This document shows positions 2,772 through 20,000 of a stretch of 20,000 nucleotides of DNA, piece after piece. The DNA comes from Chiloscyllium plagiosum (Eukaryota). The position numbers were made by a program, and so were the translations under genes. The first letter of the stretch is position 1. Every line of letters starts with the position of its first letter. A model generated the notes under the pieces. That model did no database searches. It was not told the origin of the DNA and saw only the letters and a program-made list of their open reading frames with translations. The stretch covers positions 57,976,875-57,996,874 of the forward strand of contig NC_057718.1 in the NCBI RefSeq assembly GCF_004010195.1, given 5' to 3'.

Positions 2772-2812
2772 TGCAAACATTTCGTCCCCTGTCTAGGTGA
2801 CATCCTCAGTGC
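2772..2812 (-). ncRNA. Minimal type I hammerhead ribozyme motif (degenerate)
   Basis: Minus strand GCA-CUGAGGA-U-GUCACCU(AGAC)AGGGGAC-GAAA-UGUU-UGC: CUGANGA box, stem II, GAAA box, NUH triplet and a 3-bp stem I (GCA/UGC). Confidence 0.6.
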
Positions 2813-3320
2813 TTGGGAGCCTCCTGTGAAGCGCTTCTGTGGTGTTTCCTCCGGCATTTATAGTGGCCTGTCCCTGCCGCTTCCGGTTGTCAGTTTCAGC
2901 TGTCCGCTGTAGTGGCCGGTATTTTGGGTCCAGGTCGATGTGTTTGTTGATGGAGTTTGTGGATGAATGCCATGCTTCTAGGAATTCCCTGGCTGTTCTC
3001 TGTTTGGCTTGCCCTATAATGGTAGTGTTGTTCCAGTCGAATTCATGTTGCTTGTCGCCTGCGTGTGTGACTACTAAGGATAGCTGGTCGTGTCGTTTCG
3101 TGGCTAGTTGATGTTCATGGATGCAGATCGTTAGCTGTCTTCCTGTTTGTCCTATATAGTGTTTAGTGCAGTCCTTGCATGGGATTCTGTACACTACATA
3201 GTCTTGCTCATGCTGGGTATCGGGTCCTTCGTTCTGGTGAGTTGTTGTCTGAGGGTGGCTGTTGGTTTGTGTGCTGTTAAAAGTCCCAGTGGTCGCAGTA
3301 GTCTGGCTGTCATTTCAGAA
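2793..3320 (-). pseudogene. Penelope ORF C-terminus: GIY-YIG endonuclease domain
   Basis: SEMTARLLRPLGLLTAHKPTATLRQQLTRTKDPIP (frameshift) VVYRIPCKDCTKHYIGQTGRQL..IHEH..H..FDWNNTTII..R..REFLEAWH..NSIN, the typical VY-x-IPC-x2-C-x3-YIG-x-TGR signature of Penelope-like elements. Confidence 0.88.
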
Positions 3321-3836
3321 ATCCACCGTCCGGACACGCCTTGGCGTGCCCATTTGCCACCGGGCGGTGGGGATCCCCAGTGGAGGGCTCTCTACGCGGG
3401 AGTCCTCCCTCTTTCTCTCGGGGATCTGGGGTGGAAGGTGCTGCACGCAGCAGTCCCCTGCAACCGCAGATTGCTGTGGTTGATGGACTCCCAGCCCAAC
3501 TGCTTGTTCTGTGGCGCTGTGGAGTCCGTGGACCATGGCACTCCCTTTTTGATTTTCTTAAAAACCTTCTCCTCTGTTTTTGGCTGCACTTCAGTCCCCT
3601 TTGATGTGAAGGGCAGTGTTTGTCACTGGCCACCCGGGTGTTTTCCTGTCTTCCTGGTTGTGGAAATTGAATAAAGATTGGTGCACTTTGTGTCTTTCAC
3701 TGTGTCTCACACCTGCACACACACACCATGGGTGCTGGGGATAAAATAAGCACTACCGCACTTAGGTGGTAGTGTGGGGGTTTTTTAAAAAAAGGGGAGT
3801 TTTAGTGGAGTGCATAAAACGAAAAAAAAGAAAAAA
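3321..3836 (+). mobile_element. Tx1-clade LINE, 5'-truncated fragment A (ORF2 C-terminal piece, 3' UTR, terminal hairpin, A-rich tail)
   Basis: IHRPDTPWRAHLPPGGGDPQWRALY...CLFCGAVESVDH matches ~10243-10458. Two internal deletions (~3537 and ~3598); the 3' UTR matches ~10885-11065. Confidence 0.92.
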
Positions 3837-3850
3837 ATATATAAACAGGA

Positions 3851-4610
3851 TTCTTCCCTTTCAGGGGGTAAAAAGGTGGGCCCTGTATAGACTGCTGCTG
3901 CACACCGTCCACCTCTTCTCCCTCATCCACCGTCCGGACACGCCTTGGCATGCCCATTTGCCACCGGGCGGTGGGGATCCCCAGTGGAGGGCTCTCTACG
4001 TGGGAGACCTCCCCCTTTCTCTCGGGGATCTGGGGTGGAGGGTGCTGCACGCAGCAGTCCCCTGTAACCGCAGATTGCGGTGGTTCACGGACTCCCAGCC
4101 CAACTGCTTGTTCTGTGGCGCTGTGGAGTCCGTGGACCATGTATATATTGGGTGTGGGCGTTTGCACTCCCTCTTTGATTTTCTTAAAAACCTCCTCCTC
4201 TGCTTTTGGTTGCACTTCAGTCCCACGCTCCTGATCTTTGGGCACCCGGTACGGAGGAAGGAGGGCTGGTCTGAAGACCTCTTCGTGGGTCTGCTCCTGG
4301 GCCTGGCCAAACTGGCCATCAACAGGTCCAGGCAGCGGGCCGTGGAGGGGGTCGTTAAGGCCGACTGCCTGCCCCTCTTCCGCGGTTACGTTAGGGCCCG
4401 AGTGTCCTTGGAGAAGGAGTACGCGGTGTCGACCAACACCCTAGAGTTGTTCTGGGAGAGGTGGGCGCGGCAGGGAGTGGAGTGCATTATTTCTCCCTCC
4501 AACTCTATTTTGATTTAGTCCCTCCCCTCCCCTTCACTGTTTAGATCACATAGCACTGCCCTTTGAGGTGAAGGGCAATGTTTGTCACTGGCCAGCCGGG
4601 TGTTTTCCTA
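3851..4610 (+). mobile_element. Tx1-clade LINE fragment B (ORF2 C-terminal zinc-finger region and partial 3' UTR)
   Basis: Starts immediately after ATAAACAGGA (3841-3850). The frame is open to the stop at 4518 and includes CLFCGAVESVDHVYIGC (CCHC) and ...ECIISPSNSILI*. The 3' UTR is cut at ~4610 where the next copy begins. Confidence 0.92.
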
Positions 4611-4739
4611 TTGTGAGTGTATGTGCAAGGACTCTCCTTGAAGGGGACTATCCCTGGACCAGCTGCCCTACAGAGAGAGGAAGGAAGAAAGAAGACGGAG
4701 AAGAAGAAGAGACCAGCACTCCCAGACTTGCCTCAGCTG

Positions 4740-5245
4740 TTGCTGCTTGGGGCCTACCTCACCTCTGCTGCCTGGGACTTGCCTTGGGGCCCCTCCCAGG
4801 ACCTCCACCACTGCCACTGCTGAAGGCCCACCTCCACTGCTGCTGCCTGGGACTCAATTTTGGGACTGCCTGGGACTTGCCTTGGGGACCCTCCCCAAAC
4901 AGGTCTGCCCCCTCACCGCTGCGACCAAAGGCCTACCTAGAACTTGCCTGAGGCTTGCCTCCACTGCTGCCGCTGCCTGAGACTCGCCTTGGGTCCCTCC
5001 ACCACAACTGCCTGGGACTCAATTTTGGGGCTGCCTGGGACTTGCCTTGGGGACCCTCCCCAACAGGTCTGCCCCCACCGCCGCGACTGAGGGCCAACCT
5101 AGGACTCGCCCGAGGCCTGCCTCTACTGCTGTTGTCGCTTGAGGCCTGCCTCCTCCACCGCTGCCTGGGACTCGCTTTGGCCCCTCCCTACAACCTCCAC
5201 CACTGCTGCTGCCGGAGGCCCACCTCCGCCGCCGCTGCCTGGGGC
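4740..5245 (+). repeat. Tandemly repetitive 5' UTR of Tx1 copy 1
   Basis: Many CTGCCTGGGACT(T/C)GCCTTGGGG modules; a ~165-bp duplication starts at 4843 and 5008 (CTGCCTGGGACTCAATTTTGGG...AACAGGTCTGCCCC). Related modules occur at ~16060-16335. Confidence 0.8.
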
Positions 5246-5268
5246 TTGCCAATATCCAGCAGCAGAGT

Positions 5269-7278
5269 ATGGCGAGCCCGAAGGTCACTGTGGGCGGGAC
5301 ACATTTGCCCGTCGACCCTCTGGAGGTTACGGCCCAGAGGGTCGTGATCTCTAACGTCCCGCCCTTCATTGCCAGCGAGCTCCTTCTCCCCCACCTTGCC
5401 ACCCTGGGGGAGATCCGGTCAGGGGTCCAGCCGCTCCTGCTCGGTCTGAAGGACCCCGCCCTCAGACACATCTACTCCTTCCGACGCCAGGTATTTATTT
5501 GCCTGGCCCGGGAGGAAGTCACCGAGGGCAATTTTACCGTCCTCCACGAGGGCGTGGCCTACCGCGCCTTCCGGACGGCGTGCGGTGCCACCTGTGCCAT
5601 GAGGTGGGGCACATAAGGAAAAACTGCCCCACCCAGAAGGCTGCCCCAGCCCGTGCCAATGGCTGATGGTGGTGCCGCCGCACACACTCCCCCTCCCTCG
5701 AAGTCAACACCACAGGCCCCGGCACCGAAGCCAGAGGCTTCCAATACTTCAGCCTCTGGCAGGGAGGGGGGTGAGCGTCCGGCTGGCCAGAAGGCGCGGA
5801 AGAAGACGCGACGCGTCAAGCCTGCCCACGGGGAGACCACCCTATCCCCTTCCCCGACACCTAGCCCACGACCAGCCCTGCCCCGGCACGACAATGCCCC
5901 TGCGGCTATGCCAGCGTCGCCCCGGTGTGGGAACCCTGACCCTCAAACCCCCGAAACCGTGCCTGATCCTGACCCCACACCCACTCCCCACCCCGATAGA
6001 GAAACCCCTCGGGATTCAACGCCTGCCCCTGGCAATGCAACACCTCGCCCGGGGGCACACGAGCCCGAGCCATGCCCAACCCAGCCACGCCCTGGCACTA
6101 ACCTGGGGGGAACCACTGCTGCTCCACCTCTTGCAGCGACCGTGTTTCCAGGCCCCGGAGCGGGAACTGGGCCCCTGCCCCTCCCTGCCCACCCTCACCT
6201 GATAAACCGGGGGCGGGGCAGGGCAGGAAGCGACACAGCTGGCCCTCCCCACCCTGGCCATGCCCCCTGTCTTCCCCCAGCCATTCGTATTCCGGGAAGG
6301 GCTGGGGGGAGGGACCTCGGGCCCCATGACCACCGAGGCGGGCGGGGAGGAGAAGGCCTATAAATTCCCCCTGGTCTCTCTGGGGAAGAGGCACCGGCCC
6401 CTGGAGGGGAGAGACACTCCAGCAGCGCGCTGGCGGTGCTGCCCCTCTCCGGGGGACGAACCAACGGTGTCCCTCGACTGTCCCACACCGTGGCCTGACT
6501 TACCAAAACCTCCAGGGGCTATAGCAGGGCCTCCTGCTGCCTTGACTCCTCCGGCCCCTGGGGAGGACCTCAATAACCACAAGGGCCGTGGTGCGGGCGA
6601 TGACGGAGGACCCTCTGCTGGGTCGTCGAGGGGAGGAGGGTGTTATCCTCGCTCCTCCCTCCCAGACTGTTTTTTCCGGGGGCCTTGGCCCTGGGGGATG
6701 ACCTTTTCCTGGGGGATGACCTTTTCCCCGAGGAGCCAGGCGTCCCGGTGTCGGGAGAGGAGCGGGGCCCCGAGCCTGTGCCGCCCGATGACCCGAACCC
6801 GGGGCGTTCTGGGAAGGGGTGCGCCGAGGAAGGTACTGTCGGTGACCCTGGGGGTGGGGTCGCCGGGGGTTTGAGGCCGGTTGGCGGCGCCAGACCAGCC
6901 CCCATCCTCTCGGTGGGGGAGGGGTCGGTGACCGAGGGTGACCTCCTGGAGGAGGGTTCGGGATTGGTGGCGGACACCGGGAACGACGCGGACTCCGTCT
7001 GCAGTGACATTTTTGAGTCCCAGGCTCCCCCCACCGATCTCCCCCTCATCCCCCTCGAGGAACTCCGGGAATTTGTCGAGGAAACTCGGGGTCGCCGGGA
7101 TAGAACCCAACTGGCGCTCGACCGCTGGAGCTCTTTCGAAAAAGTTTACTGGTCGGCCCACACTGCCCGCCAGGTGCCTGGGCTCGACATTAATGAGCGA
7201 AAGTGAGTCAGGAACTTCCTGGGGGCACTCCTGGTGAGGGCGAGGGACTTCAGTGCCCCTCCCTCGTCCTCCCTGTAA
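5269..7278 (+). pseudogene. Tx1 ORF1p (RRM-like N-terminus, CCHC zinc knuckle, long Pro-rich region), disrupted
   Basis: TVGGTHLPVDPL..RVVISNVPPFI..LLLPHL..LGEIRS..LRHIYSFRRQV resembles Xenopus TX1 ORF1. An alternative frame at ~5580-5631 gives VRCHLCHEVGHIRKNCP. N-terminal deletion, frameshifts and a premature TGA at 7204. Confidence 0.88.
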
Positions 7279-7332
7279 ATATACAGATAGGTTTGTTAAT
7301 TGTACTGGTGGTGGTTGCACAAAGCTTCCGAC

Positions 7333-10300
7333 ATGGAGACGACTATAGCCAGCCTCAACATCAACGGCAGCAGGGAGTCGCAGCGCAGATTCCAGACCCT
7401 CTCGGTCCTTCGGGACGGGAGGTATGCGGTGTGCTTCCTGCAAGACACCCACACTACCCCGGGAGATGAAGCCACCTGGCTCCTGGAGTGGCGATGGGGG
7501 GGGTCGACATGAGTCACCTCACCCGCAGATCTGGCGGGGTGGCTATCCTGTTGGCCCCGCATTTTCAGCCGGAGATCTTGGGGGTCAGGGAGCCTGTGCC
7601 AGGCCGTTTGCTTCACCTGACGGTTCGGCTGGGGGCCGCGGTGCTTCACTTGGTGAACGTCTACGCTCCCCTGGCCGGGCCGAGGCAAACGAGCTTCTTC
7701 AGAGAAGTGTCCGCTCATCTCGCTTCCATCGACGAGAACCAGTGCGTCGTCCTCGGGGGAGATTTTAACTGCGTCCTCGAGGGCAGGGACCACGGCGGTG
7801 CCCGCAATGGCTGGGCGTCGGGGAAGAGGTTGGGGGACTTGGTCAAGTCCTTCGACCTGGTGGACATCTGGCGGAATCTCCATTCCGACTCCATCGCCTT
7901 CACCTTCATGAGGGCTGGGGTCGGAGCATCCAGAATCGACCGCCTGTACGTTTCGCGGGCATACGCCTTCTGTTTTCCGAAGGCCTCCACGCGGCAGGTG
8001 TCGTGCACGGACCACCACCTGGTGTGGGCGGAACTCCTTCCTTTCGGCGCCAGGCTCGGCTCCGCGTACTGGCACTTTAACAACCTGCTGCTGGAGGACG
8101 AGCGGTTCCGGGACTCGTTCCGTCATTTCTGGGCCGGCTGGAGAAGGAAGCGGGGAAGCTTCCCCTCCCTGAGGCTTTGGTGGGACATGGGCAAGGCTCA
8201 CGTCCGCGTCTTCTGTCATGTGTACGCGAGGGGGTCGATGAAGAGGCGGATATCCAGGATCGGGGAGTTGGAGAGGGAGTTGCTCGACCTGGAGTCACGC
8301 CTCGGTCAGCCTGACGCGGACCCGGCCCTGCGCGGGGCGTACGAAGAGAAGGCCGTGCTCCGGGACCTGCAGCTCGTCGGGGCGCGTACGTGAGGTCGCG
8401 GATCCAACTCCTCCTGGAGGCGGCTCCCCCTTCTACTTGCTGGAAAAAAGGCGTGGCACCCGTCAGCAGCTCCTTGTGCTGCTGGCCGACGGCGGGTCCC
8501 TCGTCTCGGATCCGGAGGGCATCAGGGCCCACGTCCAAAACTATTACACGGCTCTGTTCTCTCCGGATCCGTCCAGCGAGGATGCTCGCAGAGTTCTGTG
8601 GGAGGACCTGCCGCAGCTCAGCCCGGAGGACGCCGGAAGGCTCGACGCTCCCGTCACTTTAGAGGAGCTGACCGGCACCCCCAACCGGCTCTCGAGGAGC
8701 AAAACCCCGGGGCTGGACGGGCTGACTGTGGAGTTCTTCAGGGCGCTCTGGGGCGTCCTGGGGAGCGACTACGCACAGCTCCTGGGGGAGTGTCTAAATG
8801 CCGGAGAGCTGCCCCTTTCTTGGCGCAGGGCGGTCATCGTCCTGCTGCCAAAGAAGAGGGACCTTCGTTCTTTAAAGGACTGGCGTCCGGTCTCCCTCCT
8901 CAGCACGGACTACAAAATCTTTGCCAGGGTGTTGTCTTCTCGCCTGGCCTCCGTGCTGGCCCAAATGATTCACCCGGACCAGTCCTACACGGTCCCGGGC
9001 CGGAGGATACACGATAACGTCCACCTGGTCTGGGACCTGATCCATTTCTGTCGACGGGCTGGTCTGCCGAGCGCCTTCCTGTCTCTCGACCAGGAGAAGG
9101 CGTTCGACAGGGTCGATCACAAGTACCTGCTCGGGACTCTGCAGGCATTCGGGTTCGGGACGCAGTTCGTCGCCCGGATCCGACTTTTGTACGCCGCCGC
9201 AGAGTATCTGGTTAAAGTTAATGGGTCCCTGATGGCGCCCCTTTGCTTCGCGAGAGGAGTGCGTCAAGGCTGCCCCCTGTCCGTCCAGCTGTATTCCCTG
9301 TGCGTGGAGCCTTTCCTACGCCTCTTGCGGAGGAGGTTGTCGGGGCTGGTTCTGCACGGCGCGGGCACAGGGGTGGTCCCCTCGGCCTACGCGACGTGCT
9401 CCTCACTTTCACCGACCCGGCTGACATCCAGAGAACGTTGGTCGATTTTTCTTCTGGGACAAAAAGATGCACTGGGTCACTGCGCAGGTTCTGAGTCTCC
9501 CTATTGAGGAGGGCGGTCAGTCGCTGGTGTGCGTCCACACCCAGGTCGCGACATTCCGTCTTCAGACCTTGCGGCGATACCTTTACGTCGAGACTCCTCC
9601 TAGGTGGTGCGCCCTGGCGACGTATTTTTTTTTCCGCCAGGTGCGTAACCTCAACTACGACACGCAGCTCCTGTTCGTCGACCGTGACGGTTTGGAGGTC
9701 GCCCTCAAGACGCTGCCTGTCTTTTACCAGGACCTGATCACTGTCTAGAACATGGTCGAATCGCGTCGCGCCTACCCTCCGGCTGGAGTAGCGGCTGTCG
9801 TCAGGGAGCCGTTGCTCAGGAATCCGCACCTCCATACTCACTGGTTCGATTGGCTGTCGGAGGGGAGGGCTGTGGCGGTGAGGGTGACCAGGGTCAGGGA
9901 CGTGCCGGGGACCTGGGCTGGACGCTGCCGCAGGACATAGCGAGCAGGGCAGCGGTAAACGTCTGGTACGTGGCCACCGCCATCCGACGCCTTAAAACGG
10001 CGGTGCTCGGACCCGACATAGTGCACCAGTTGGAGGAGGCTCAGCTGTGCGGTAGGATCCCATCTGCGCTCACCCCAACCCAGACGGAATTTCACTTTGG
10101 CCCCAAGGTCCCGTATTTCCCGCGGGAGCCTGTGCCCCACGACCTGAGCCGCCTCCAGAATTTTAATTTTGTCTCTTTCAAGGATATAAAAAGGCAGGCC
10201 CTGTATTGACTGCTGCTGCACACTGTCCACCTCTTCTCCCTCATCCACCGTCTGGACACGCCTTGGCGTGCCCATTTGCCACCGGGCGGTGGGGATCCCC

Positions 10301-10837
10301 AGTGGAGGGTGCTCTACGCAGGAGTCCTCCCTCTTTCTCTCGGGGATCTGGGGTGGAGGGTGCTGCACGCAGCAGTCCCCTGCAACCGCAGATTGCGGTG
10401 GTTCACGGACTCCCAGCCCAACTGCTTGTTCTGTGGCGCTGTGGAGTCCATTGACCACGTGTATAATGGGTGTGGGCGTTTGCACTCCCTTTTTTGATTT
10501 TCTGAAAAACCTCCTCCTCTGCTTTTGGTTGCACTTCAGTCCCGCGCTCCTGATCTTTGGCCACCTGGTACGGAGGAAGGAGGGCAGGTCAGAAGACCTC
10601 GTAGTGGGTCTGCTCCTGGGCCTGGCCAAACTGGCCATCAACAGGTTGAGGCAGCGGGCTGTGGAGGGGGTCGTTAGGGCCGACTGCCTGCCCCTCTTCC
10701 GCGGTTACGTTAGGGCCCGGGTGTCCTTGGAGAAGGAACACGCGGTGTCGACCAACACCCTGGAGTTGTTCAGGGAGAGGTGGGCGCCGCAGGGAGTGGA
10801 GTGCGTTATTTCCCCCTCCAACTCTATTTTGATTTAG
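7333..10837 (+). pseudogene. Tx1 ORF2p (APE endonuclease, reverse transcriptase, C-terminal zinc finger), disrupted
   Basis: EN: IASLNING, CFLQDTH, GGVAIL, VNVYAP, LGGDFNC, SRIDRLYVS, TDHHLV. RT: KTPGLDGLTVEFF, WRPVSLLSTDYKI, SLDQEKAFDRVDH, RGVRQGCPLS. YADD is broken at ~9388 with a downstream deletion. C-terminal CLFC..H..C motif. Confidence 0.95.
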
Positions 10838-11038
10838 TCCCTACCCTCCCCTCCCCTTCACTGTTTTGATCACATAGTATCGCCCTTTGATGTGAAGGGC
10901 AGTGTTTGTCACTGGCCACTCGGGTGTTTTCCTATCTTCCTGGTGGTGGAAATCGAATAAAGATTGGTGCACTTTGTGTCTCTCACTGTGTCTCACACCT
11001 GCACACACACACACCATGGGTGCTGGGGAAAAAATAAG

Positions 11039-11061
11039 CACTACCGCACTTAGGTGGTAGT
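11039..11061 (+). other. 3'-terminal stem-loop of the Tx1 family (representative of 8 copies in the window)
   Basis: Consensus CACTACCGC-A(C/G)TTAG-G(T/C)GGTAGTG, a 9-bp stem with 6-nt loop just upstream of the A-rich tail. Also at 3751-3774, 11232-11255 and five minus-strand positions in 12430-13820. Confidence 0.8.
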
Positions 11062-11125
11062 ATGGGAACAAAAAAAAGAGGAGTTTGAATAAAGATTCAT
11101 TTAAAAAAAAAATAAACAGGAGTGT

Positions 11126-11341
11126 TCAACACCCTGGAAAAAAAACAAACCAAAAAAAAGATTGGTGCACCTTGAGTCTCTCACTGTGTATCACACCTAC
11201 ACACACCATGGGTGCTGAGGGATAAAATAAGCACTACCGCAGTTAGGCGGTAGTGTGGGGTTTAATAGAGAGGAAAAAAAAACAGAAGTTGAGGAGGACA
11301 CTGCTTATCACTGGCCACTCTTCCGGGTGATTGAAGAAAAA
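11126..11341 (+). mobile_element. Patchwork of short Tx1 3' fragments and A-rich linkers
   Basis: After ATAAACAGGAGTGT (11112-11125): CAACACCCTGGA (ORF2 scrap) plus an A run, a 3' UTR copy at ~11157-11262 with hairpin, a TCACTGGCCACTC scrap, then ATATAAACAGGA (11342-11353). Confidence 0.85.
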
Positions 11342-11353
11342 ATATAAACAGGA

Positions 11354-11545
11354 TTCTGGATTAGTGGTGCTGGAAGAGCACAGCAGTTCAGGCAGCATCA
11401 GAGGAGCAGTAAAATTGACGTTTTGGGCAAAAGCCCTTCATCAGGAATACAGGCAGAGAGTCTGAAGAGTGGGGAGAAAGTAACATAGAGTACAATAGGT
11501 GAGTGGGGGAGGGGATGAAGGTCAGTGTCGGGGGGTGGGGTGGGC
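11354..11545 (-). mobile_element. Penelope-like 3' end/pLTR, inverted arm
   Basis: Reverse complement of ~11905-12106 with an internal deletion; carries a hammerhead-like core at 11414-11448 and runs into the assembly gap. Confidence 0.7.
11414..11448 (-). ncRNA. Minimal hammerhead ribozyme motif, core mutated
   Basis: Minus strand CUGAUGA-A-GGGC(UUUU)GCCC-AAAA-CGUC; GAAA has become AAAA. Confidence 0.55.
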
Positions 11546-11827
11546 NNNNNNNNNNNNNNNNNNNNNNNNNNNNNNNNNNNNNNNNNNNNNNNNNNNNNNN
11601 NNNNNNNNNNNNNNNNNNNNNNNNNNNNNNNNNNNNNNNNNNNNNNNNNNNNNNNNNNNNNNNNNNNNNNNNNNNNNNNNNNNNNNNNNNNNNNNNNNNN
11701 NNNNNNNNNNNNNNNNNNNNNNNNNNNNNNNNNNNNNNNNNNNNNNNNNNNNNNNNNNNNNNNNNNNNNNNNNNNNNNNNNNNNNNNNNNNNNNNNNNNN
11801 NNNNNNNNNNNNNNNNNNNNNNNNNNN
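11546..11827. other. Assembly gap
   Basis: Run of N. Confidence 1.
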
Positions 11828-12142
11828 CTCCTCTCTGACCTATCACCTTCATCCCCACCCCATTCACCCATTGTACTCTTTGCTACCTTGCCCCACCCTC
11901 CTCCCTGACCTATTACCTTCATCCCACCCCCATTCACCTATTGTACTTTATGTTACTTTCTCCCCACCCTCCTCTCACTTATCTCTCCACCCTTCAGGCT
12001 CTCTGCCTGTATTCCTGATGAAGGGCTTTTGCCCAAAACATCAATTTTACTGCTCCTCGGATGCTGCCTGAACTGCTGTGCTCTTCCAGCACCACTAATC
12101 CAGAATCTGGCTTCCAGCATCTGCAGTAATTGTTTTTACCTG
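11828..12142 (+). mobile_element. Penelope-like 3' end/pLTR, direct arm
   Basis: Pyrimidine-rich tandem units (CTGACCTATYACCTTCATCCC..CCCCATTCACCYATTGTACT x2), then ATTCCTGATGAAGGGCTTTTGCCCAAAACATC and a tail ending ...TTGTTTTTACCT. No coding sequence is visible, so the class assignment rests on the ribozyme motif and the inverted architecture. Confidence 0.7.
12011..12046 (+). ncRNA. Minimal hammerhead ribozyme motif, core mutated
   Basis: CUGAUGA-A-GGGC(UUUU)GCCC-AAAA-CAUC against the canonical ...GAAA-CGUC; both changes fit CpG decay. Confidence 0.55.
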
Positions 12143-12300
12143 ATATAAACAGGACATTGAGTCTCTTCAGTTTAGGGGACTGACTCTGTTACAGTCAGTG
12201 TGTTACTGTTACTTTCTGCTTCTCTTTTTGGGAGGGGGAAACCTGATTCCTGAACTGGCTGAATTATTTAGCCAGTTTGCTAACTGGCATTCCTTTTTAT

Positions 12301-14268
12301 TTATTTATTTATTTATTTATATATTTTTTTTCCAGGGTGTTGGTGGACACCGCGTGCTCCTTCTCCAAGGACACCCGGGCTCTAACGTAATCTCCTGTTT
12401 ATATATATATACTTTTTTCTTTTTTTTTTAACCCCCACACTACCACCTAAGTGCGGTAGTGCTTACTGGCATTCCTTTTTTTTTAGTGGAAGACACAAAG
12501 TGCACAAATGTTTATTCAATTTCCACCACCAGGAAGATAGGAAAACACCCGGGTGACCAGTGACAAACACTGCCCTTCACATCAAAGGGCAGTGCTGTGT
12601 GATCAAAACAGTGAAGGGGAGGGTAGGGACTAAATCAAAATAGAGTTGGAGGGAGAAATGATGCACTCCACTCCCTGTGGCGCCCACCTCTCCCTGAACA
12701 ACTCCAGGGTGTTGGTCGACGCCGCGTGCTCCTTCTCCAAGGACACCCGGGCTCTAACATAACCGCGGAAGAGGGGCAGGCAGTCGGCCCTAACGACCCC
12801 CTCCACGGCCCGCTGCCTGGACCTGTTGATGGCCAGTTTGGCCAGGCCCAGGAGCACTGGCATTCCTTTTTTTCTTTTTATAGGAAAAACACCCGGGTGG
12901 CCAGTGACAAGCACTGCCCTTTCTCCTGTTTATTTTTCTTTCTTTTTTTAACCCCCACACTACCACCTAAGTGCGGTAGTGCTTATTACATTCCTGTGTA
13001 TATATTTTTTTTTTTCTCAAATTCCCACTCCTGTTTATATATATATTTTTTTATTTTAACCCCCACACTACCACCTAAGTGCGGTAGTGCTTATTTTATC
13101 CCCAGCACCCATGGTGTGTGTGTGCAGGTGTAAGACACTGTGAAAGACACAAAGTGCACGAATCTTTATTCAAATTACACCACCGGGAAGATAGGAAAAC
13201 ACCGGGTGGCCAGTGACAAACACTGCCCTTCACATCAAAGGACAGTGCTGTGTGATCAAAACAGTGAAGGACACTCCTGATTATTTTTTTTTTTTCAAAT
13301 TCTCCAGATTATTTTTTTTTCTCTTTTTTTTTCCAGATTATATTTTTTTTTTTCTTCTTTTTTTTTGTTTTAACCCCCACACTACCACCTAAGTGCAGTA
13401 GTGCTTATTTTATCCCCAGCACCCATGGTGTGTGTGTGCAGGTGTAAGACACTGTGAAAGACACAAAGTGCACGAATCTTTATTCAAATTACACCACCGG
13501 GAAGATAGGAAAACACCGGGTGGCCAGTGACAAACACTGCCCTTCACATCAAAGGACAGTGCTGTGTGATCAAAACAGTGAAGGGGAGGGTAGGGACTAA
13601 ATCAAAATAGAATTGGAGGGAGAAATGATGCACTCCACTCCCTGCGGCGCCCACCTCTCCCTGAACAACTCCAGGGTATTGGTGGACACCGCATGCTCCT
13701 TCTCCAAGGACACCCGGGCCCTAACGTAACCGCGGAAGAGGGGCAGGCAACACTGGGGAATTTATTTTTTTTTTTTTTTTTTTTTCTTTACCCTACACTA
13801 CCACCTAACTGCGGTAGTGCTTATTTTATCCCCAGCACCCATGGTGTATGTGTGCAGGTGTGAGACACAGTGAAAGACACAAAGTGACATTCCTGTTTAA
13901 ATATTTTTTTTTCCAAATTCCACCACCAGGAAGATAGGAAAACACCCAGGTGGCCAGTGACAANNNNNNNNNNNNNNNNNNNNNNNNNNNNNNNNNNNNN
14001 NNCAGTGCTGTGTGATCAAAACAGTGGAGGGGTGGGTAGGGACTAAATCAAAATAGAGTTGGAGGGAGAAATGATGCACTCCACTCCCTGCGGCGCCCAC
14101 CTCTCCCTGAACAACTCCAGGGTGTTGGTGGACACCGCGTGCTCCTTCTCCAAGGACACCCGGGCTCTAACATAACCGCGGAAGAGGGGCAGGCAGACGG
14201 CCCTAACGACCCCCTCCACGGCCCGCTGCCTGGACCTGTTGATGGCCAGTTTGGCCAGGCCCAGGAGC
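12301..14268 (-). mobile_element. Minus-strand concatemer of about 9 short Tx1 3' fragments flanked by a 15-bp direct repeat
   Basis: Units at approx. 12332-12390, 12430-12464, 12491-12855, 12880-12921, 12950-12987, 13058-13269, 13371-13750, 13789-13885 and 13913-14268. ACTGGCATTCCTTTT flanks both sides (12283-12297 and 14269-14283). Confidence 0.92.
13964..14002. other. Assembly gap within a Tx1 3' UTR copy
   Basis: Run of N; the flanks are collinear with the other 3' UTR copies. Confidence 1.
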
Positions 14269-15029
14269 ACTGGCATTCCTTTTAGTGAGGACTGATTGTT
14301 AAACTCCTGATGCACATAATGTGTTTCAGGTGTAACTCAGTTCTCATTAGGGGATTGTTGTTTCACTGGCTGGTTACAGCCTGTGTTATACTTTTTTTTT
14401 ACTTTTGAGAAAGGACCATGTTATATTTGTGGTAGGGCTTAGCCCATGGACTCAAGTTTCCTTTGTTTTTTGTATGTGTCCTCACTGTTTTTGGTGTTTG
14501 GACTGAGCCCTTGTGGAAGACATACATTTTACCAGAGGAGCTGTTCCTGTGGGGAGGCCTGGGCCTGTGTGTGTGCTGGGAGGTTAGCACTTGTATCCTG
14601 GAGTTTGGATTAAACCCCTGTGAGTTAACTGCACATGTACTATGTTCCTGTGAGTGGGCCTGGTTTTCCAAGGCTGGGCCAGGACTCCATGGAGACTGAA
14701 TACCTGTGCGCTGTGCATTTGCTGCCTTCAGGAGTGAACTCTGCCCTCGGTTGGGGACCCTGCTTTTTATTGGTGGACTCTGCAGTTTGGAGTGGACTCC
14801 ATTTTGGACAATGCACCTTGCAAACTGGAGTGGACTCCATTCCTGGGAATGGACTCTATATTTTGAAGACTCTATATTTGGACTGTGTACTAGAAAGGAC
14901 TCTGTTTGTTGGTAACTAACTGTCATATGGTTTGTTGGGGTTATCACCTGCACTGTCTTGAATGTCCCTGGGTCTGGCAGGTCTTACCATGAGCTGGGAG
15001 GCTCATGGGTCATCCTGAAAGCTGTCACC

Positions 15030-15545
15030 CCAAGAGCCGGAGGGTGAGTAGGCCATCCTGTGAACCTGAAGGTTTGTAGGCTGTCCCGAAAGCCGGAGGG
15101 AGGGTAGGCCATTCTGAGTGCTGTCGTCCCAAGAAGGGGTGATCTGGATGGGCTGTCCTAGAGGTGGTCAGAAGGTGTCTGAGCAGCTGAGAGCCAGAAG
15201 GCACGTAGGGGCAGGCTGAGATCTAGAAGGCTTGTGGGATACCCTGCACACCTTCGTCCCAGGGAAGGGGGACGGGCTGTCCTAGAGGTGGCTGGAAGGT
15301 GTGCCAGGCTAGCCCACTGGCTGGATGATGCATCGGGGTGGGTGAGAGCCCAATGGTACGTAGGGCAGACAGAGCCAGAAGGTGGGTAGGCCATCCTGAC
15401 TGCTGTCACACTGGGCGGGTACTGGGGCGGGCTATCCTAGAGGTGGTTGAAAGGTGTTAGGGTGGACAGAAAAAAGACAGAAAGAGCATGGGGTGGACCA
15501 AGAGCCATAGGGGCGGGCTGCTTTAGAGTGGTCGGAAGGTGGGAG
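15030..15545 (+). repeat. Degenerate G-rich modular repeats in an unassigned segment
   Basis: GGGCTRTCCTAGAGGTGGYYRGAAGGTGT-like units at ~15150, 15274, 15429 and 15515; AGCCRGARGG..GTAGGCCATYCTG at ~15035, 15091 and 15373. Confidence 0.7.
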
Positions 15546-15805
15546 GGACGGGGGCTTGCTGGGTCTGTATTGTCTGCTCTTTCCATGTAACATGATTGTC
15601 TCATGTACAAATGTCATTGTTGCTGTCTTTTCATATTTGAAACTGGGATTTGTTGTTTGTCCTCCATTCCCTGTTCCCTGTAAACTGGTTGAACGGTAGG
15701 GTTTGGGGCCTAGCTTTGCTGTTCCTCCCCCTTGTAAAATTATTGTTGTATACAGCTGTAAATGTTACTGTTTTTTGTAAACTGTTTTGGATTTTATTTA
15801 ATAAA

Positions 15806-15824
15806 ATATAAACAGGAGTGTCAG
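15806..15824 (+). other. Junction/target motif ATATAAACAGGAGTGTCAG preceding Tx1 copy 2
   Basis: Longest plus-strand instance of the motif found at about 14 insertion junctions in the window. Confidence 0.8.
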
Positions 15825-16396
15825 ACATCCTGTTCTTTCTGAGCTGGCTCTTGAGGGAGCTGGACCAGTGTGTGTGAAGGACTCTCCTCTTGATTTGCTT
15901 CAGGAGAAGGGGGAACTGATGCTGGGACTGGCTGGCTCACAGCCAGTGTGGGAGAAGAGAAAAGGAAGAAGAGTTAGACAGAAGGAGGTGAGAGTTCGGA
16001 GGCCTGGGCCTGTGTCTGGTGCTGCAGCCTTGGTTTTGCCTACAGCTGGCCCAACTGCTGCTGCTGCCTGAGGCCTACCTCCATGGCTGCTGCCAGAGCC
16101 TCACCCAGGTCAAGGGAGTGTTGCTGCTGCCTGGGGCCCACTCCCACTGCTCATCTCTGGGATCCACCTCACTGTTGCTACCTGGGACTCACTTTGGGGC
16201 CCCTCCCAGGACCTCTAGACTGTTGCTGCTAGAGGCCCATCTCCACCACTGCTGCCCAGGACGCACTGCTGCTGCCTGGGACTTGGCTTTGGATCATGCC
16301 AGGACCTCCACCACTGCTGTTGCCTGGGACCTCTAATGGACTCCTGTCACACCTGGTTCCTGGGGCCTGTTTCCACCAGCAGCAGACAGAAAAAGT

Positions 16397-18343
16397 ATGG
16401 TGAGGCTGAAGACCGCAGGACCCAGCCACACCTATGCTGGGGTAGCCGCTGCCTTTGGCTTAGCTGCTGCAACCCCAATCCCCTTCAGGCACCTAACTAA
16501 ATGCCTGGGGCTAAAGGCCTATCCCCAGCCCAACATGACCATCGAGGCCTGCAGTAAGGCCATGGCTAGTGTGGTTGGCCCACTGGCCATCGCTGCAGCC
16601 AGGATGTATGGGAAGGCTGTATTTTTCCTCGAGACCGAGCAGGCGGTCCACCTAGCCGTGGAGAGGGATCTCACTGTGGGTGGGACACATCTACTCATTG
16701 ACCCTTTGGAGATTACGGCCCAGAGGGTCGTGATCCCCAACATCCCGCCCTTCATTGCCAGTGAGCTCCTTCTTCCCCACCACAACACCTTGGTGGAGAT
16801 CGGGTCGGGTGTCCAACCGCTCCTGCTTGGTCTCCAGGACCTTGCCCTGCGGCATATTTATTCCTTCTGACGCCAGGTGTTCATTTGCCTGGCCCGGGAG
16901 GAGGTCAGCGAGGGCCCGATAACCCTCTTCCACGAAGGTGTGACCAACTGCATCTTCTGGATGGTGTGTGGTGCCACCTGTGCCGCGAGGTGGGGGCACA
17001 TAAGAAAAAAACTGCCCCACCCAGAAGGCTGCCCAGCCCAGCACGATAATGCCCCCGCGGCCGTGCCAGCCTCTCCCCGGCGCGGGAACCCTGACCCCCA
17101 AACCCGTACCTGATCCTGGCCCTGCAGCACCCACTGACCCCCCCACACAACCCCTGCCCCGTTACAGAAACTCCTGGGGCTTCAACGCCTGCTACTTGCC
17201 CGGGGGTCCCTGAGCCCTTGGCACTACCTGGGGGAAACCACCACTGCTTTCCCTCCTACAGCAGCTGTGTCTCTGGGCCCCGGAGAGGGAACTGGGCCCC
17301 TGCCCTGCCCACCATCACCTGATAAACCAGGGCGGGGTAGGAAGTGACACAGATGGCCTGCCACACCCCCAGGCAATAGGATTCTGGGAGAAGCTGGGGG
17401 GAGGCACCTCGGACCCCATGATCACCAAGGCGGGTGGGGAGGGGTAGGCCCATAAACTCCCCCCTGTCTCTCTGGGGAAGAGGCGCCAGCCCTTGGAGGG
17501 GAGAGACATGCCAGCGGCACTGGCCCTCTCCAGGGCATGAGCCTATGGTGTCTCTTGCCTGTCCCACACTTGGGCCTGACCTGCCGGAATCCCCAGGGAT
17601 TACAGCAGGACCTCCTGCTGCCGTAATTCCACCGGCCCCTGGGGAGGACTTTAACAACCACGAGGGCCACAGTACAGGTGACGACAGTGAACTGTCCGCT
17701 GGGTCGTCGAGCGGTGGAGGGGAGGAAGGTGTTATCCTCACTCCTCCCTCCCAGACTGTTTTTCTGGGGGCCTTGACCCTGGGGCAGGACCTTTTCCCCG
17801 AGGAGCCGGGCGTCCCGGTGGTGGGAGAGGAGCGGGGCCCCGAGCCTCTGCCGCCTGACGACCCGAACTTAGGGCATTCTGGGAAGGGATGCGCCGAGGA
17901 AGGGACCGCTGGTGACCCTGGGGGGTGGGGTCGCTGGGGGATTGAGGCCAGTTGGCGGTGCTGGACCAGCCCCCACTCTCTCAGTGGGGGAGGAGTCTGT
18001 GACCGAGGGCGACCTCCCAGAGGAGGGTTCAGGATCGGTAGTGGACACTGGGGATGACGCGGAGTCTGTCTCCAGCGACATTTGAGTCCCAGGTGCCCCC
18101 CACCGATCTCCCCCTCATCGCCCTCAAAACTCTGGGAGTTTGTCGAGGAAACTGAGTCGCCGGGATAGAGCCCAATTGGCGCTCGACCGCTGGAGCTCCT
18201 TCGAGAGAGTCTACTGGTCGGCCCAGGCTGCTCACCAGGCGCCTGGGCTCGATGTCAATGAGCGAAAGCAAGTCAGGAACTTCCTGGAGGTGCTCCTGGT
18301 GAGGGCGAGGGACTTCTGTGCCCCTCCCTCGTCCTCCCATTAA
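16397..18343 (+). pseudogene. Tx1 ORF1p, copy 2, disrupted
   Basis: FRHLTK..MTIEACSKAMASVVGPLAIAAARMYGKAVFFL..TVGGTHLLIDPLE..NIPPF resembles the Xenopus TX1 ORF1 N-terminus. Stop at 16868-16870; knuckle CHLCREVGHIRK at ~16972-17007; deletion at ~17040; further frameshifts. Confidence 0.88.
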
Positions 18344-18387
18344 ATGTATATAGTTTTTAACTGTACTGATTGTACAAAGCTTCCGAC

Positions 18388-20000
18388 ATGGAGACAACTA
18401 TAGCCAGCCTCAACATCAACGGCAGCAGGGAGTCGCAGCGCAGATTCCAGACCCTCTCGGTCCTTCGGGACGGGAGGTATGCGGTGTGCTTCCTGCAAGA
18501 AACCCACACTACCCCGGGAGACGAAGCTACCTGGCTCCTGGAGTAGCGAGGGGTGGTCTACATGAGTCACCTCACCCGCAGATCTGGCGGGGTGGCTATC
18601 TTGTTGACCCTGCGTTTTCAGCTGGAGATCTTAGGCGTCAGGGAGCCTGTGCCAGGCCGTTTGCTTCACCTGACGGTTCGGCTGGGGGGCGCGGTGCTTC
18701 ACTTGGTGAACGTCTACGCTCCCCTGGCCGGGCCGAGGCAAGCGAGCTTCTTCAGAGAAGTGTCCGCTCATCTCGCCTCCATCGCCGAAAGCCAGTGCGT
18801 CGTCCTCGGGGGAGTTTTAACTGCGTCTTCGAGGGCAGGGACCACGGCGGTGCCCGCATTGGGGAGGAGGTTGAGGGACTTGGTGGACGTCTGGCGGAAT
18901 CTCCATCCCGACTCCATCGCCTTCACCTTTGTGAGGCCTGGGGTCGGAGCGTCCGGAATCGACCGCCTGTACGTTTCGCGGGCGTATGCCTCCTGTTTTC
19001 CGAAGGGCTCCACGCGGCAGGTGTCGTGCACGGAGCATCACCTGGTGTGGGCGGAACTCCTTCCATTCGGTGCCAGGCTCGGCTCCGCGTACTGGCACTT
19101 TAACAACCTGCTGCTGGAGGACGAACGGTTCCGGGACTCGTCTTGTCGTTTCTGGGCCAGCTGGAGAAGGAAGCGGGGAAGCTTCCCCTCCCTGAGACTA
19201 CGGTGGGATGTGGGCAAGGCTCACGTCCGCGTCTTCTGTCAGGAGTACGTGAGGGGGTCGACAGAGTGGCAGAAATCCAGGATCGGGGAGTTGGAGAGGT
19301 AGATGCTCGACCTGGAGTCACGCCTCGGTCAGCCCGACGCGGACCCGGCCCTGGGCGGGGCGTACGAAGAGAAGGCCGCGCTCCGGGACCTGCAGCTCGT
19401 CGGGGCTCGGGGTGCGTACGTGAGGTCGCGGATCCAGCTCCTCCAGGACCTGGACTGTGGCTCCCCCTTCTACTCGCTGGAAAAAAGGCGTGGCACCCGT
19501 CAGCAACTTCTTGTGCTGCTGGCCGACGGCGGGTCCCTCGTCTCTGATCCGGAGGGCATCAGGGCCCACGTCCAAAACTATTACACGGCTCTGTTCTCTC
19601 CGGATCCATCCAGCGAGGATGCTCGCAGAGTTCTGTGGGAGGACCTGCCGCAGCTCAGCCCGGAGGACGCCGGAAGACTCGACGCTCCCGTCACTTTAGA
19701 GGAGCTGACTGGTGCCCTTGACCAGCTCTCGAGGGGCAAAACCCCCGGGCTGGAAGGGCTGACTGTGGAGTTCTTTAGAGCGTTCTGGGGAGCGACTACG
19801 TACAGGTCCTGGGAGAGTGTCTAAATGCCGGAGAGCTACCCCTTTCTTGGCGCAGGGCGGTCATCGTCTTGCTGTCAAAGAAGGGGGACCTTCGTTCTCT
19901 AAAGGACTGGTGTCCCGTCTCTCTCCCTCCTCAGCACGGGCTACAAAATCTTCGCCAGGGTGTTGTCTTCTCGCCTGGCCTCCGTGCTGGCCCACATGAT
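18388..20000 (+). pseudogene. Tx1 ORF2p, copy 2 (APE endonuclease and RT N-terminus), disrupted and partial
   Basis: METTIASLNING..CFLQETH, TAG at 18544, GGVAIL, VNVYAP, IDRLYVS, KTPGLEGLTVEFF; frameshifts present. Confidence 0.94.

What the first reader, a model, noticed from the sequence alone, without database searches (positions are those of the whole stretch)
3837..15824. Sequence-specific Tx1 family: one motif, (T)ATAAAMAGGARTGYCAG, marks most insertion junctions
Seen on +: 3837-3850, 11112-11125, 11342-11353, 12143-12154 and 15806-15824. Seen on -: ~12283, 12392, 12465, 12856, 12923, 12988, 13026, 13270, 13885 and 14269. At most sites the motif follows an A-rich tail and directly precedes the 5' end of the next insert in the same orientation. 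It was not seen in the ORFs or 3' UTR. Established: Tx1-clade elements use an APE endonuclease with target specificity (Tx1L into Tx1D, Keno into U2 snRNA, Mutsu into 5S rRNA, Dewa into tRNA spacers, Kibi/Koshi into microsatellites). Inference: this family has a different target, which matches none I recognise. Because the target-site duplication includes the recognition sequence, each insertion would regenerate the site, explaining a nest of more than 16 kb.
Basis: partly seen in the sequence, partly recalled or inferred. Interest (0 to 1): 0.85.

Follow-up and report, generated by a model that had tools for sequence, protein, structure and literature searches.

The report
LINE homing to LTR TATA boxes
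A frog-Tx1-like jumping gene lands mostly at the TATA box of another jumping gene's end-repeat and stacks up there, carries a copy of that repeat's downstream sequence at its own front end, and likely borrows the repeat's promoter; aimed insertion of this general kind is already known.

Summary
The motif is real and is target DNA, not the element's 3' end. It is the TATA box region of an abundant ~230-245-bp LTR, likely Gypsy: 607 exact 26-mer sites, 30 of 30 sampled empty. The element is Tx1-like (RT 61% identical to Xenopus Tx1 ORF2). Of 37 classifiable 3'-anchored copies, 25 sit at this TATA box, all in sense, with mostly 12-17-bp duplications; 10 sit elsewhere, so this is strong preference, not strict specificity. 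One foreign junction occurs on 17 contigs, so junctions travel with the RNA. Intact 5' ends begin with a copy of the LTR sequence downstream of the TATA box (31 of 31). A non-coding 1.6-kb partner has a similar head. Transcription from the LTR promoter is inferred; no RNA data were obtained. Tx1 families that prefer LTR retrotransposons and TSD-spaced arrays (R1) are published, and this scan noted the TATA target in this genome at least nine times on other DNA. Verdict: new variant of a known kind.

The parts
3321..3778 (+). Tx1-like 3' fragment with internal deletion and A tail; left end of the nest, no motif at its 5' junction
3837..3850 (+). target-type motif (TATAAACAGGA) after an A tail
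3855..4611 (+). Tx1-like 3' piece ending inside the 3' UTR, fused without tail or motif to the next copy
4612..11077 (+). near full-length Tx1-like copy: clipped head and 5' UTR, broken ORF1 with a CCHC knuckle, broken ORF2 (APE endonuclease from 7333, RT, zf-RVT-like end, stop near 10837), 3' UTR and A tail
11078..11341 (+). short A-tailed pieces of ORF2 end and 3' UTR, with a motif at 11112-11125
11342..11353 (+). motif; left copy of a 12-nt duplication around an unrelated common repeat and an assembly gap
12143..12154 (+). motif; right copy of that duplication, start of the partner element
12155..12283 (+). partner element B, 5' part: head resembling the downstream sequence of a second LTR subtype
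12284..14286 (-). antisense array of about 11 A-tailed Tx1-like pieces inside B; local duplication TAAAAGGAATGCCAG at 14286, 12873, 12482, 12300; other spacers foreign
14287..15805 (+). partner element B, body and 3' end; no similarity to two Tx1 ORF2 proteins; at least 235 copies
15806..15871 (+). target motif plus head homologous to the LTR downstream of its TATA box (84% to a natural LTR copy, E 1.8e-13)
15872..20000 (+). second full-length Tx1-like copy (5' UTR, ORF1, ORF2 start, broken); ends at L031:2720 with an A tail, motif and LTR 3' half

Best explanation
A Tx1L-like LINE family inserts mostly at the TATA box of an abundant LTR, in the LTR's sense direction, and likely does so because its APE endonuclease prefers that sequence. 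Shown: the site exists empty; it is duplicated over mostly 12-17 bp with each locus's private variants; arrays re-use it; many junctions are imported from other loci; intact 5' ends carry about 45-70 nt of LTR sequence from downstream of the site. Inferred mechanism: (1) the endonuclease nicks the bottom strand at the start of TATAAAC and TPRT duplicates the site; (2) the duplicate is hit again; (3) the new cDNA anneals to whatever homologous sequence lies just downstream (an earlier insert, or the LTR for headed copies), which lengthens the duplication and repeats the same 5' junction; (4) the LTR promoter left upstream transcribes through the array, so RNAs carrying tail-motif-unit joints, heads, LTR pieces and the non-coding partner B are copied into other sites.
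For: Empty sites: 607 exact 26-mers (control 0); 30 of 30 sampled are intact LTRs. 20 of 29 LTRs found by upstream similarity are empty, 7 carry this LINE at the TATA box, 2 another repeat. 25 of 37 classifiable 3'-anchored loci lie in the LTR, against at most 0.5% LTR sequence in 178,771 flank bases. 123 of 263 junctions are within 2 mismatches of the 11-mer core (47% against 2.5% shuffled), and 107 of those 123 start 12-17 nt after it. Same-junction units differ by 3.1-3.7% in the first 30 nt against 5.2-5.9% between loci, converging by 120-240 nt; 89 of 175 pairs have different 3' ends. B in a matching LTR subtype shares local variants for about 45 nt, in the other subtype about 12 nt (one case each). 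One foreign junction sits at 20 places on 17 contigs, 19 behind A tails, none behind LTR upstream sequence. Heads: 31 of 31. An initiator-like YYANWYY has its A 30 nt from the TATA start in 21 of 30 empty LTRs.
Against: No RNA or enzyme data. 10 of 37 copies are outside the LTR. Only 2 of 31 heads lie directly behind the LTR promoter half. In L114 and L221/L242 the element-derived sequence starts 13-20 nt after the TATA start, upstream of the predicted start site at 30, so the simple model 'own adjacent TATA box starts the RNA inside the head' fails there. The 20 copies of the foreign junction mostly have different upstream units, which pure read-through from one donor does not predict; only L195/L203 and L200/L212/window share the upstream unit. 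The pairs are not independent, and no donor locus was found.
Confidence: 0.65

Rival explanations
1. Arrays are partly concatemers made in one event: the RT jumps from the 5' end of one short RNA (starting at a motif) to the A tail of another, instead of copying one read-through RNA.
For: The 20 copies of one foreign junction have many different upstream units and 3' ends, and one is fused to untailed ORF2 sequence. Arrays mix LINE ends, heads of 10-100 nt, LTR pieces and B pieces, each with an A tail.
Against: Whole unit-tail-motif-unit joints are identical between chromosomes. RNAs starting at a motif still need upstream transcription. Local duplications inside arrays (38 of 66) need separate nicking events.
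Confidence: 0.2
2. Targeting comes from promoter chromatin or TATA-binding factors, with an endonuclease of only loose A-rich preference.
For: A second CCAAT/TATA repeat is hit at its TATA box in L014 and L093, and L029 also has a CCAAT upstream. Non-LTR duplications resemble the core only loosely.
Against: The look-alike site inside B is hit at the same position on the antisense strand in four B copies (window, L003, L243, L215) with no TATA context. Xenopus Tx1L endonuclease is sequence-specific on naked DNA (PMC1950540, passages read).
Confidence: 0.1
3. One reading: strict sequence specificity and sequential insertion into regenerated sites explain every junction.
For: 38 of 66 internal junctions repeat the local duplication with its private variants; the same route is proposed for Drosophila R1 arrays (PMC2718515 section 13).
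Against: 28 of 66 internal junctions are foreign; identical junctions recur on unlinked contigs; 10 of 37 loci are off target.
Confidence: 0.04
4. Arrays are DNA-level tandem duplications or assembly errors.
For: Many arrays abut N gaps; window segments 12590-12870 and 14003-14283 are 98% identical; some head loci are near duplicates (L074/L178, L189/L191).
Against: Repeated units differ by 3-7% and in their tails and 3' ends while sharing one 5' junction; many arrays have both LTR halves intact with no gap.
Confidence: 0.03

Closest known systems
Tx1L of Xenopus laevis (YTX2_XENLA), inserted in the DNA transposon Tx1D
   Same: RT region 61% identical over 97% of the query; endonuclease-to-linker region 40% identical; targets another transposon (PMC1950540 and PMC4494074, passages read).
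   Different: Target is an LTR TATA box, not a piggyBac derivative. The hairpin loop read as the RDGH loop of PMC1950540 is three residues shorter in this copy. About a quarter of copies are off target.
Tx1-8_Crp and Tx1-4_AMi (crocodilian Tx1; Kojima 2015, PMC4494074 section 15 read)
   Same: Tx1-clade families preferentially inserted into specific LTR retrotransposons.
   Different: The text does not give the position within the LTR element and the supplement could not be read, so a TATA-box target or captured head there is neither shown nor excluded. They belong to the group clustering with Keno; no tree was built here.
SINEU with Tx1-Mar (PMC4494074; abstract, passages, sections 15 and 20 read)
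   Same: Non-autonomous partners share the target of a Tx1 family, occur in tandem around a TSD, gain 5' heads repeatedly, and are proposed to be transcribed from flanking sequence.
   Different: SINEU heads are U1/U2 snRNA; here the heads of the LINE and of B are copies of the target LTR itself.
R1 and R2 in 28S rDNA (PMC2718515 sections 13 and 15 read; PMC3774820 abstract read)
   Same: R1 tandem arrays spaced by a 14-bp TSD through insertion into earlier TSDs; target sequence carried on the RNA to new sites; 5' target sequence proposed to anneal and prime second-strand synthesis; co-transcription with the target.
   Different: Other clades and an rDNA target. R2 carries upstream target sequence cut by a ribozyme; this family carries downstream target sequence as a fixed head, and Rfam found no RNA family in the window.

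Membership tests
Tx1 clade non-LTR retrotransposon | APE endonuclease at the N terminus of ORF2 | tested here: met
   Pfam Exo_endo_phos E 2.2e-5; aligns to Xenopus Tx1 ORF2 from residue 1
Tx1 clade non-LTR retrotransposon | RT closest to Tx1-type proteins | tested here: met
   RVT_1 E 3.1e-27; 61% identity to YTX2_XENLA, the only hit among the 120 listed whose shown name gives an element family (proteins of 558-2000 aa only)
Tx1 clade non-LTR retrotransposon | Placement in an RT phylogeny with named Tx1 families | not tested
   No tree built; Repbase and Dfam not available
Tx1 clade non-LTR retrotransposon | Two ORFs, A tail and target-site duplication | tested here: met
   Broken ORF1 with a CCHC knuckle seen in translation; tails and duplications
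Target-specific Tx1 (Kojima 2015 criterion: one sequence type in more than 20% of flanks) | Flank enrichment | tested here: met
   25 of 37 classifiable loci; 39 examined, 2 unclassifiable; criterion read
Target-specific Tx1 | Endonuclease nicks the target in vitro | not testable with these tools
   Needs protein
Gypsy LTR retrotransposon (the target) | TG...CA repeat with short TSD; two repeats flanking protease then RT | tested here: met
   5-bp TSD exact in 2 and one mismatch in 1 of 5 parsed copies, one more by eye (L044); L111 has two copies at 1519-1732 and 5981-6201 with RVT_1 E 9.8e-9 and a weak protease hit, E 0.098, before it
Gypsy LTR retrotransposon (the target) | Integrase downstream of RT | tested here: inconclusive
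   No Pfam hit for L111:4430-4882; reading it as RNase H end and integrase start is recalled. The 465 nt between the protease and RT frames leave no room for a Copia-type integrase.
Classical SINE (partner B) | tRNA, 5S or 7SL head | tested here: not met
   No Rfam match at gathering score in the window; the head matches LTR sequence

The most novel reading that the evidence does not exclude
A LINE and its non-coding partner have given up their own promoters and parasitise an LTR promoter: they aim at its TATA box, have twice captured the LTR's downstream sequence as a 5' head that restores the promoter context and guides 5' joining, and use the resulting arrays as transcription units that spread whole target junctions between loci.
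Probability: 0.4. Interest if true: 0.65.

Novelty: new variant of a known kind. Interest (0 to 1): 0.45.

Why it matters
It adds an LTR TATA box to the list of Tx1 targets in a close relative of Tx1L, whose endonuclease has been studied biochemically, so a change of target can be tested by comparing the two enzymes. The many diverged target copies act as natural barcodes: they separate junctions made in place from junctions carried by RNA and show homology-guided 5' joining, a poorly understood step of LINE integration. If the promoter is really borrowed, the family would also disable or redirect LTR promoters across the genome.

Tried and rejected
Motif as part of the element's 3' end: rejected, it is present in empty LTRs and carries locus-private variants. 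Motif as a tRNA, snRNA or rRNA target: no Rfam match in the window. Structured RNA at the head or 3' end: z -0.02 and -1.09, no support. RNA starting at the initiator inside the head from the adjacent TATA box as the only route: contradicted by L114 and L221/L242. Donor locus of the foreign junction: none among 20 exact matches. LTR 5' half of the window's nest: not found. B as a coding element: no hit to two Tx1 ORF2 proteins at E below 0.4; no wider search run. Expression: no RNA holder listed; no read-level data were obtained, so transcription is untested. Orthologous empty sites in related species: no relatives held. Look-up of B in earlier scan notes by sequence: nothing. Literature: searches listed no paper on a Tx1 family aimed at an LTR TATA box or with an LTR-derived head; this library lacks most subscription papers, Repbase entries, the original Tx1L endonuclease paper and the Kojima 2015 supplement, any of which could hold it.
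Full report
Observation. The 17-mer with up to 3 mismatches matches 10 times against 0.20 expected from 200 shuffles. Eleven sites follow an A tail and precede an insert in the same direction. Two (11342, 12143) flank an unrelated common repeat and a gap, and two (14269, 12283) are the outer ends of the minus-strand array.

The element. Window 4612-11077 and 15825-20000 (continuing to L031:2720) are broken full-length copies. ORF2 has an APE endonuclease and an RT. The RT region is 61% identical to Xenopus Tx1 ORF2 and 64% to a ray protein; most other listed hits are turtle and fish proteins. The genome is 3.56 Gb; that it is a cartilaginous fish is my inference, partly from recall.

The target. 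A search with the 3' UTR gave 43 matches from 40 scored candidates of 847; 39 loci other than the window were mapped. Twenty-five have LTR sequence directly upstream ending at TATAAACAGG and/or directly downstream of the last tail. One lies in the partner element B, one behind a diverged look-alike, ten in other sequence with their own short duplications, and two could not be classified. The repeat is about 230-245 bp, runs TG...CA, has CCAAT, TATAAA and AATAAA in that order, shows 5-bp flanking duplications in some copies, and occurs twice around a weak protease hit and an RT hit in L111. It is an LTR, likely Gypsy. It makes up at most 0.5% of 178,771 flank bases. An exact 26-mer across the site occurs 607 times and 30 of 30 sampled are empty LTRs (the pattern extends past the usual junction, so it selects for empty sites). 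Of 29 LTRs found by upstream similarity to an occupied copy, 7 carry the LINE at this site, 2 carry another repeat and 20 are empty. All LINE insertions at the LTR site were in sense. Of 263 junctions in 63 loci, 123 lie within 2 mismatches of an 11-mer core (2.5% in shuffles), and 107 of these start 12-17 nt after it (the 263 include some internal breakpoints).

A second site. The minus-strand array sits in B at TAAAAGGAATGCCAG. A 25-mer across this site occurs 235 times at up to 1 mismatch; 29 of 30 sampled have no insertion at the exact site. It is hit in the window, L003, L243 and L215, antisense and without TATA context, which favours sequence recognition over promoter tethering.

How arrays grow. 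In 14 arrays from the 3'-anchored set, 38 of 66 internal junctions repeat the local duplication with its private variants and 28 do not. Local repeats often re-use the same 5' truncation point, up to nine times in L104, yet differ in tails, 3' ends and body variants. Divergence is lower next to the junction (3.1-3.7% against 5.2-5.9% between loci) and converges further in (pairs not independent). This fits new cDNA annealing to the earlier insert. B gives a matching contrast: about 45 nt of shared local variants in the LTR subtype that matches its head, about 12 nt in the other (one case each). Foreign junctions travel: one occurs at 20 places on 17 contigs, 19 behind A tails and none behind LTR upstream sequence, and the window's joint at 13900 (-) is identical over 60 nt on two other chromosomes.

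The head. The 5' end at 15806-15871 is 84% identical to an LTR copy from the TATA box onward. All 31 exact matches to the head-to-UTR junction have such LTR homology in front (the pattern itself holds 11 nt of it, and two pairs are near duplicates). Two lie directly behind the LTR promoter half, one in other sequence, 28 in arrays; many are only head plus 10-100 nt and an A tail. The next part of the 5' UTR resembles, by eye, the downstream sequence of a second LTR subtype, suggesting an older capture; this was not scored. B (12155-12283 plus 14287-15805) has a head of that second subtype and no similarity to two Tx1 ORF2 proteins. An initiator-like sequence lies 30 nt from the TATA start in 21 of 30 empty LTRs. 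However, in L114 and L221/L242 element-derived sequence begins 13-20 nt after the TATA start, so those RNAs began further upstream. Read-through from the promoter at the head of an array is the best fit; template jumping is the main rival. No RNA data were obtained.

Comparison with what is known. Kojima 2015 (PMC4494074; abstract, passages, sections 15 and 20 read; supplement not available) reports Tx1-8_Crp and Tx1-4_AMi preferring LTR retrotransposons, tandem SINEU-3 copies around a TSD, repeated 5' head additions and possible transcription from flanks. Stage and Eickbush 2009 (PMC2718515, sections 13 and 15) describe R1 arrays spaced by a 14-bp TSD and target sequence carried on the RNA. 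Eickbush 2013 (PMC3774820, abstract) proposes annealing of target-derived 5' sequence in R2. Repanas 2007 (PMC1950540, passages) shows Tx1L endonuclease nicking its target specifically. PMC4640811, PMC6719617 and PMC6795142 were seen as passages and added nothing specific. Ten searches listed no paper on a TATA-box target or an LTR-derived head. Nine earlier notes of this scan describe the TATA target in this genome; I reached it before reading them. Eight agree; one doubts that the family is dedicated to the LTR, which the 25 of 37 count argues against. The summaries shown do not mention heads or imported junctions.

Verdict. Real, and a clean example. The targeting principle, TSD-spaced arrays and target-derived ends each have precedent; their combination at an LTR TATA box with a captured downstream head appears new but rests on sequence alone. 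New variant of a known kind, interest 0.45.

Noticed in passing
window 12155-12283 and 14287-15805 (+); L212-L248: Non-coding ~1.6-kb element B with an LTR-derived head, at least 235 copies, inserted at the same TATA site and mixed into the arrays; its 3' end is unlike the LINE's, so its driver may be a sister Tx1 family.
   Followed up: partly
window 2796-3314 (-): GIY-YIG-like frame (atlas score 0.94, PF01541 on 18% of cluster members; no Pfam hit), likely a Penelope-type fragment, abutting the left end of the nest.
   Followed up: partly
window 11353-12142; L040:1602-1868; L041:1652-1769: A very common repeat in inverted copies between two 12-nt motif copies; the same repeat lies at or near the TATA box in 2 of 29 LTRs. 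It occurs in about 60 of the fetched loci, so chance is possible.
   Followed up: partly
L014 and L093, upstream flanks: A second CCAAT/TATA-bearing repeat family is also hit at its TATA-like box.
   Followed up: no
L164, L173, L185, L188 arrays: Short A-tailed pieces of the LTR's own downstream sequence occur as array units, a possible source of the captured heads.
   Followed up: no
window 4611/4612; L110:7873-8004; L202:1500: Units fused without tail or motif, in two cases a 3' UTR cut near GTTTTCC joined to a clipped head.
   Followed up: no
L009:505-723 and 1739-2073: A junction inside the array matches one at another LTR copy 1 kb upstream.
   Followed up: no
window 11038-11062 (+): An 8-bp hairpin just before the A tail, kept in most complete 3' ends; the 86-nt region folds no better than shuffles (z -1.09).
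   Followed up: partly
window 9449-9450; L105, L114, L116, L125, L130: The window's first long copy lacks a stretch of ORF2 that five other copies hold, and lacks part of the ORF1 start present in the second copy.
   Followed up: no
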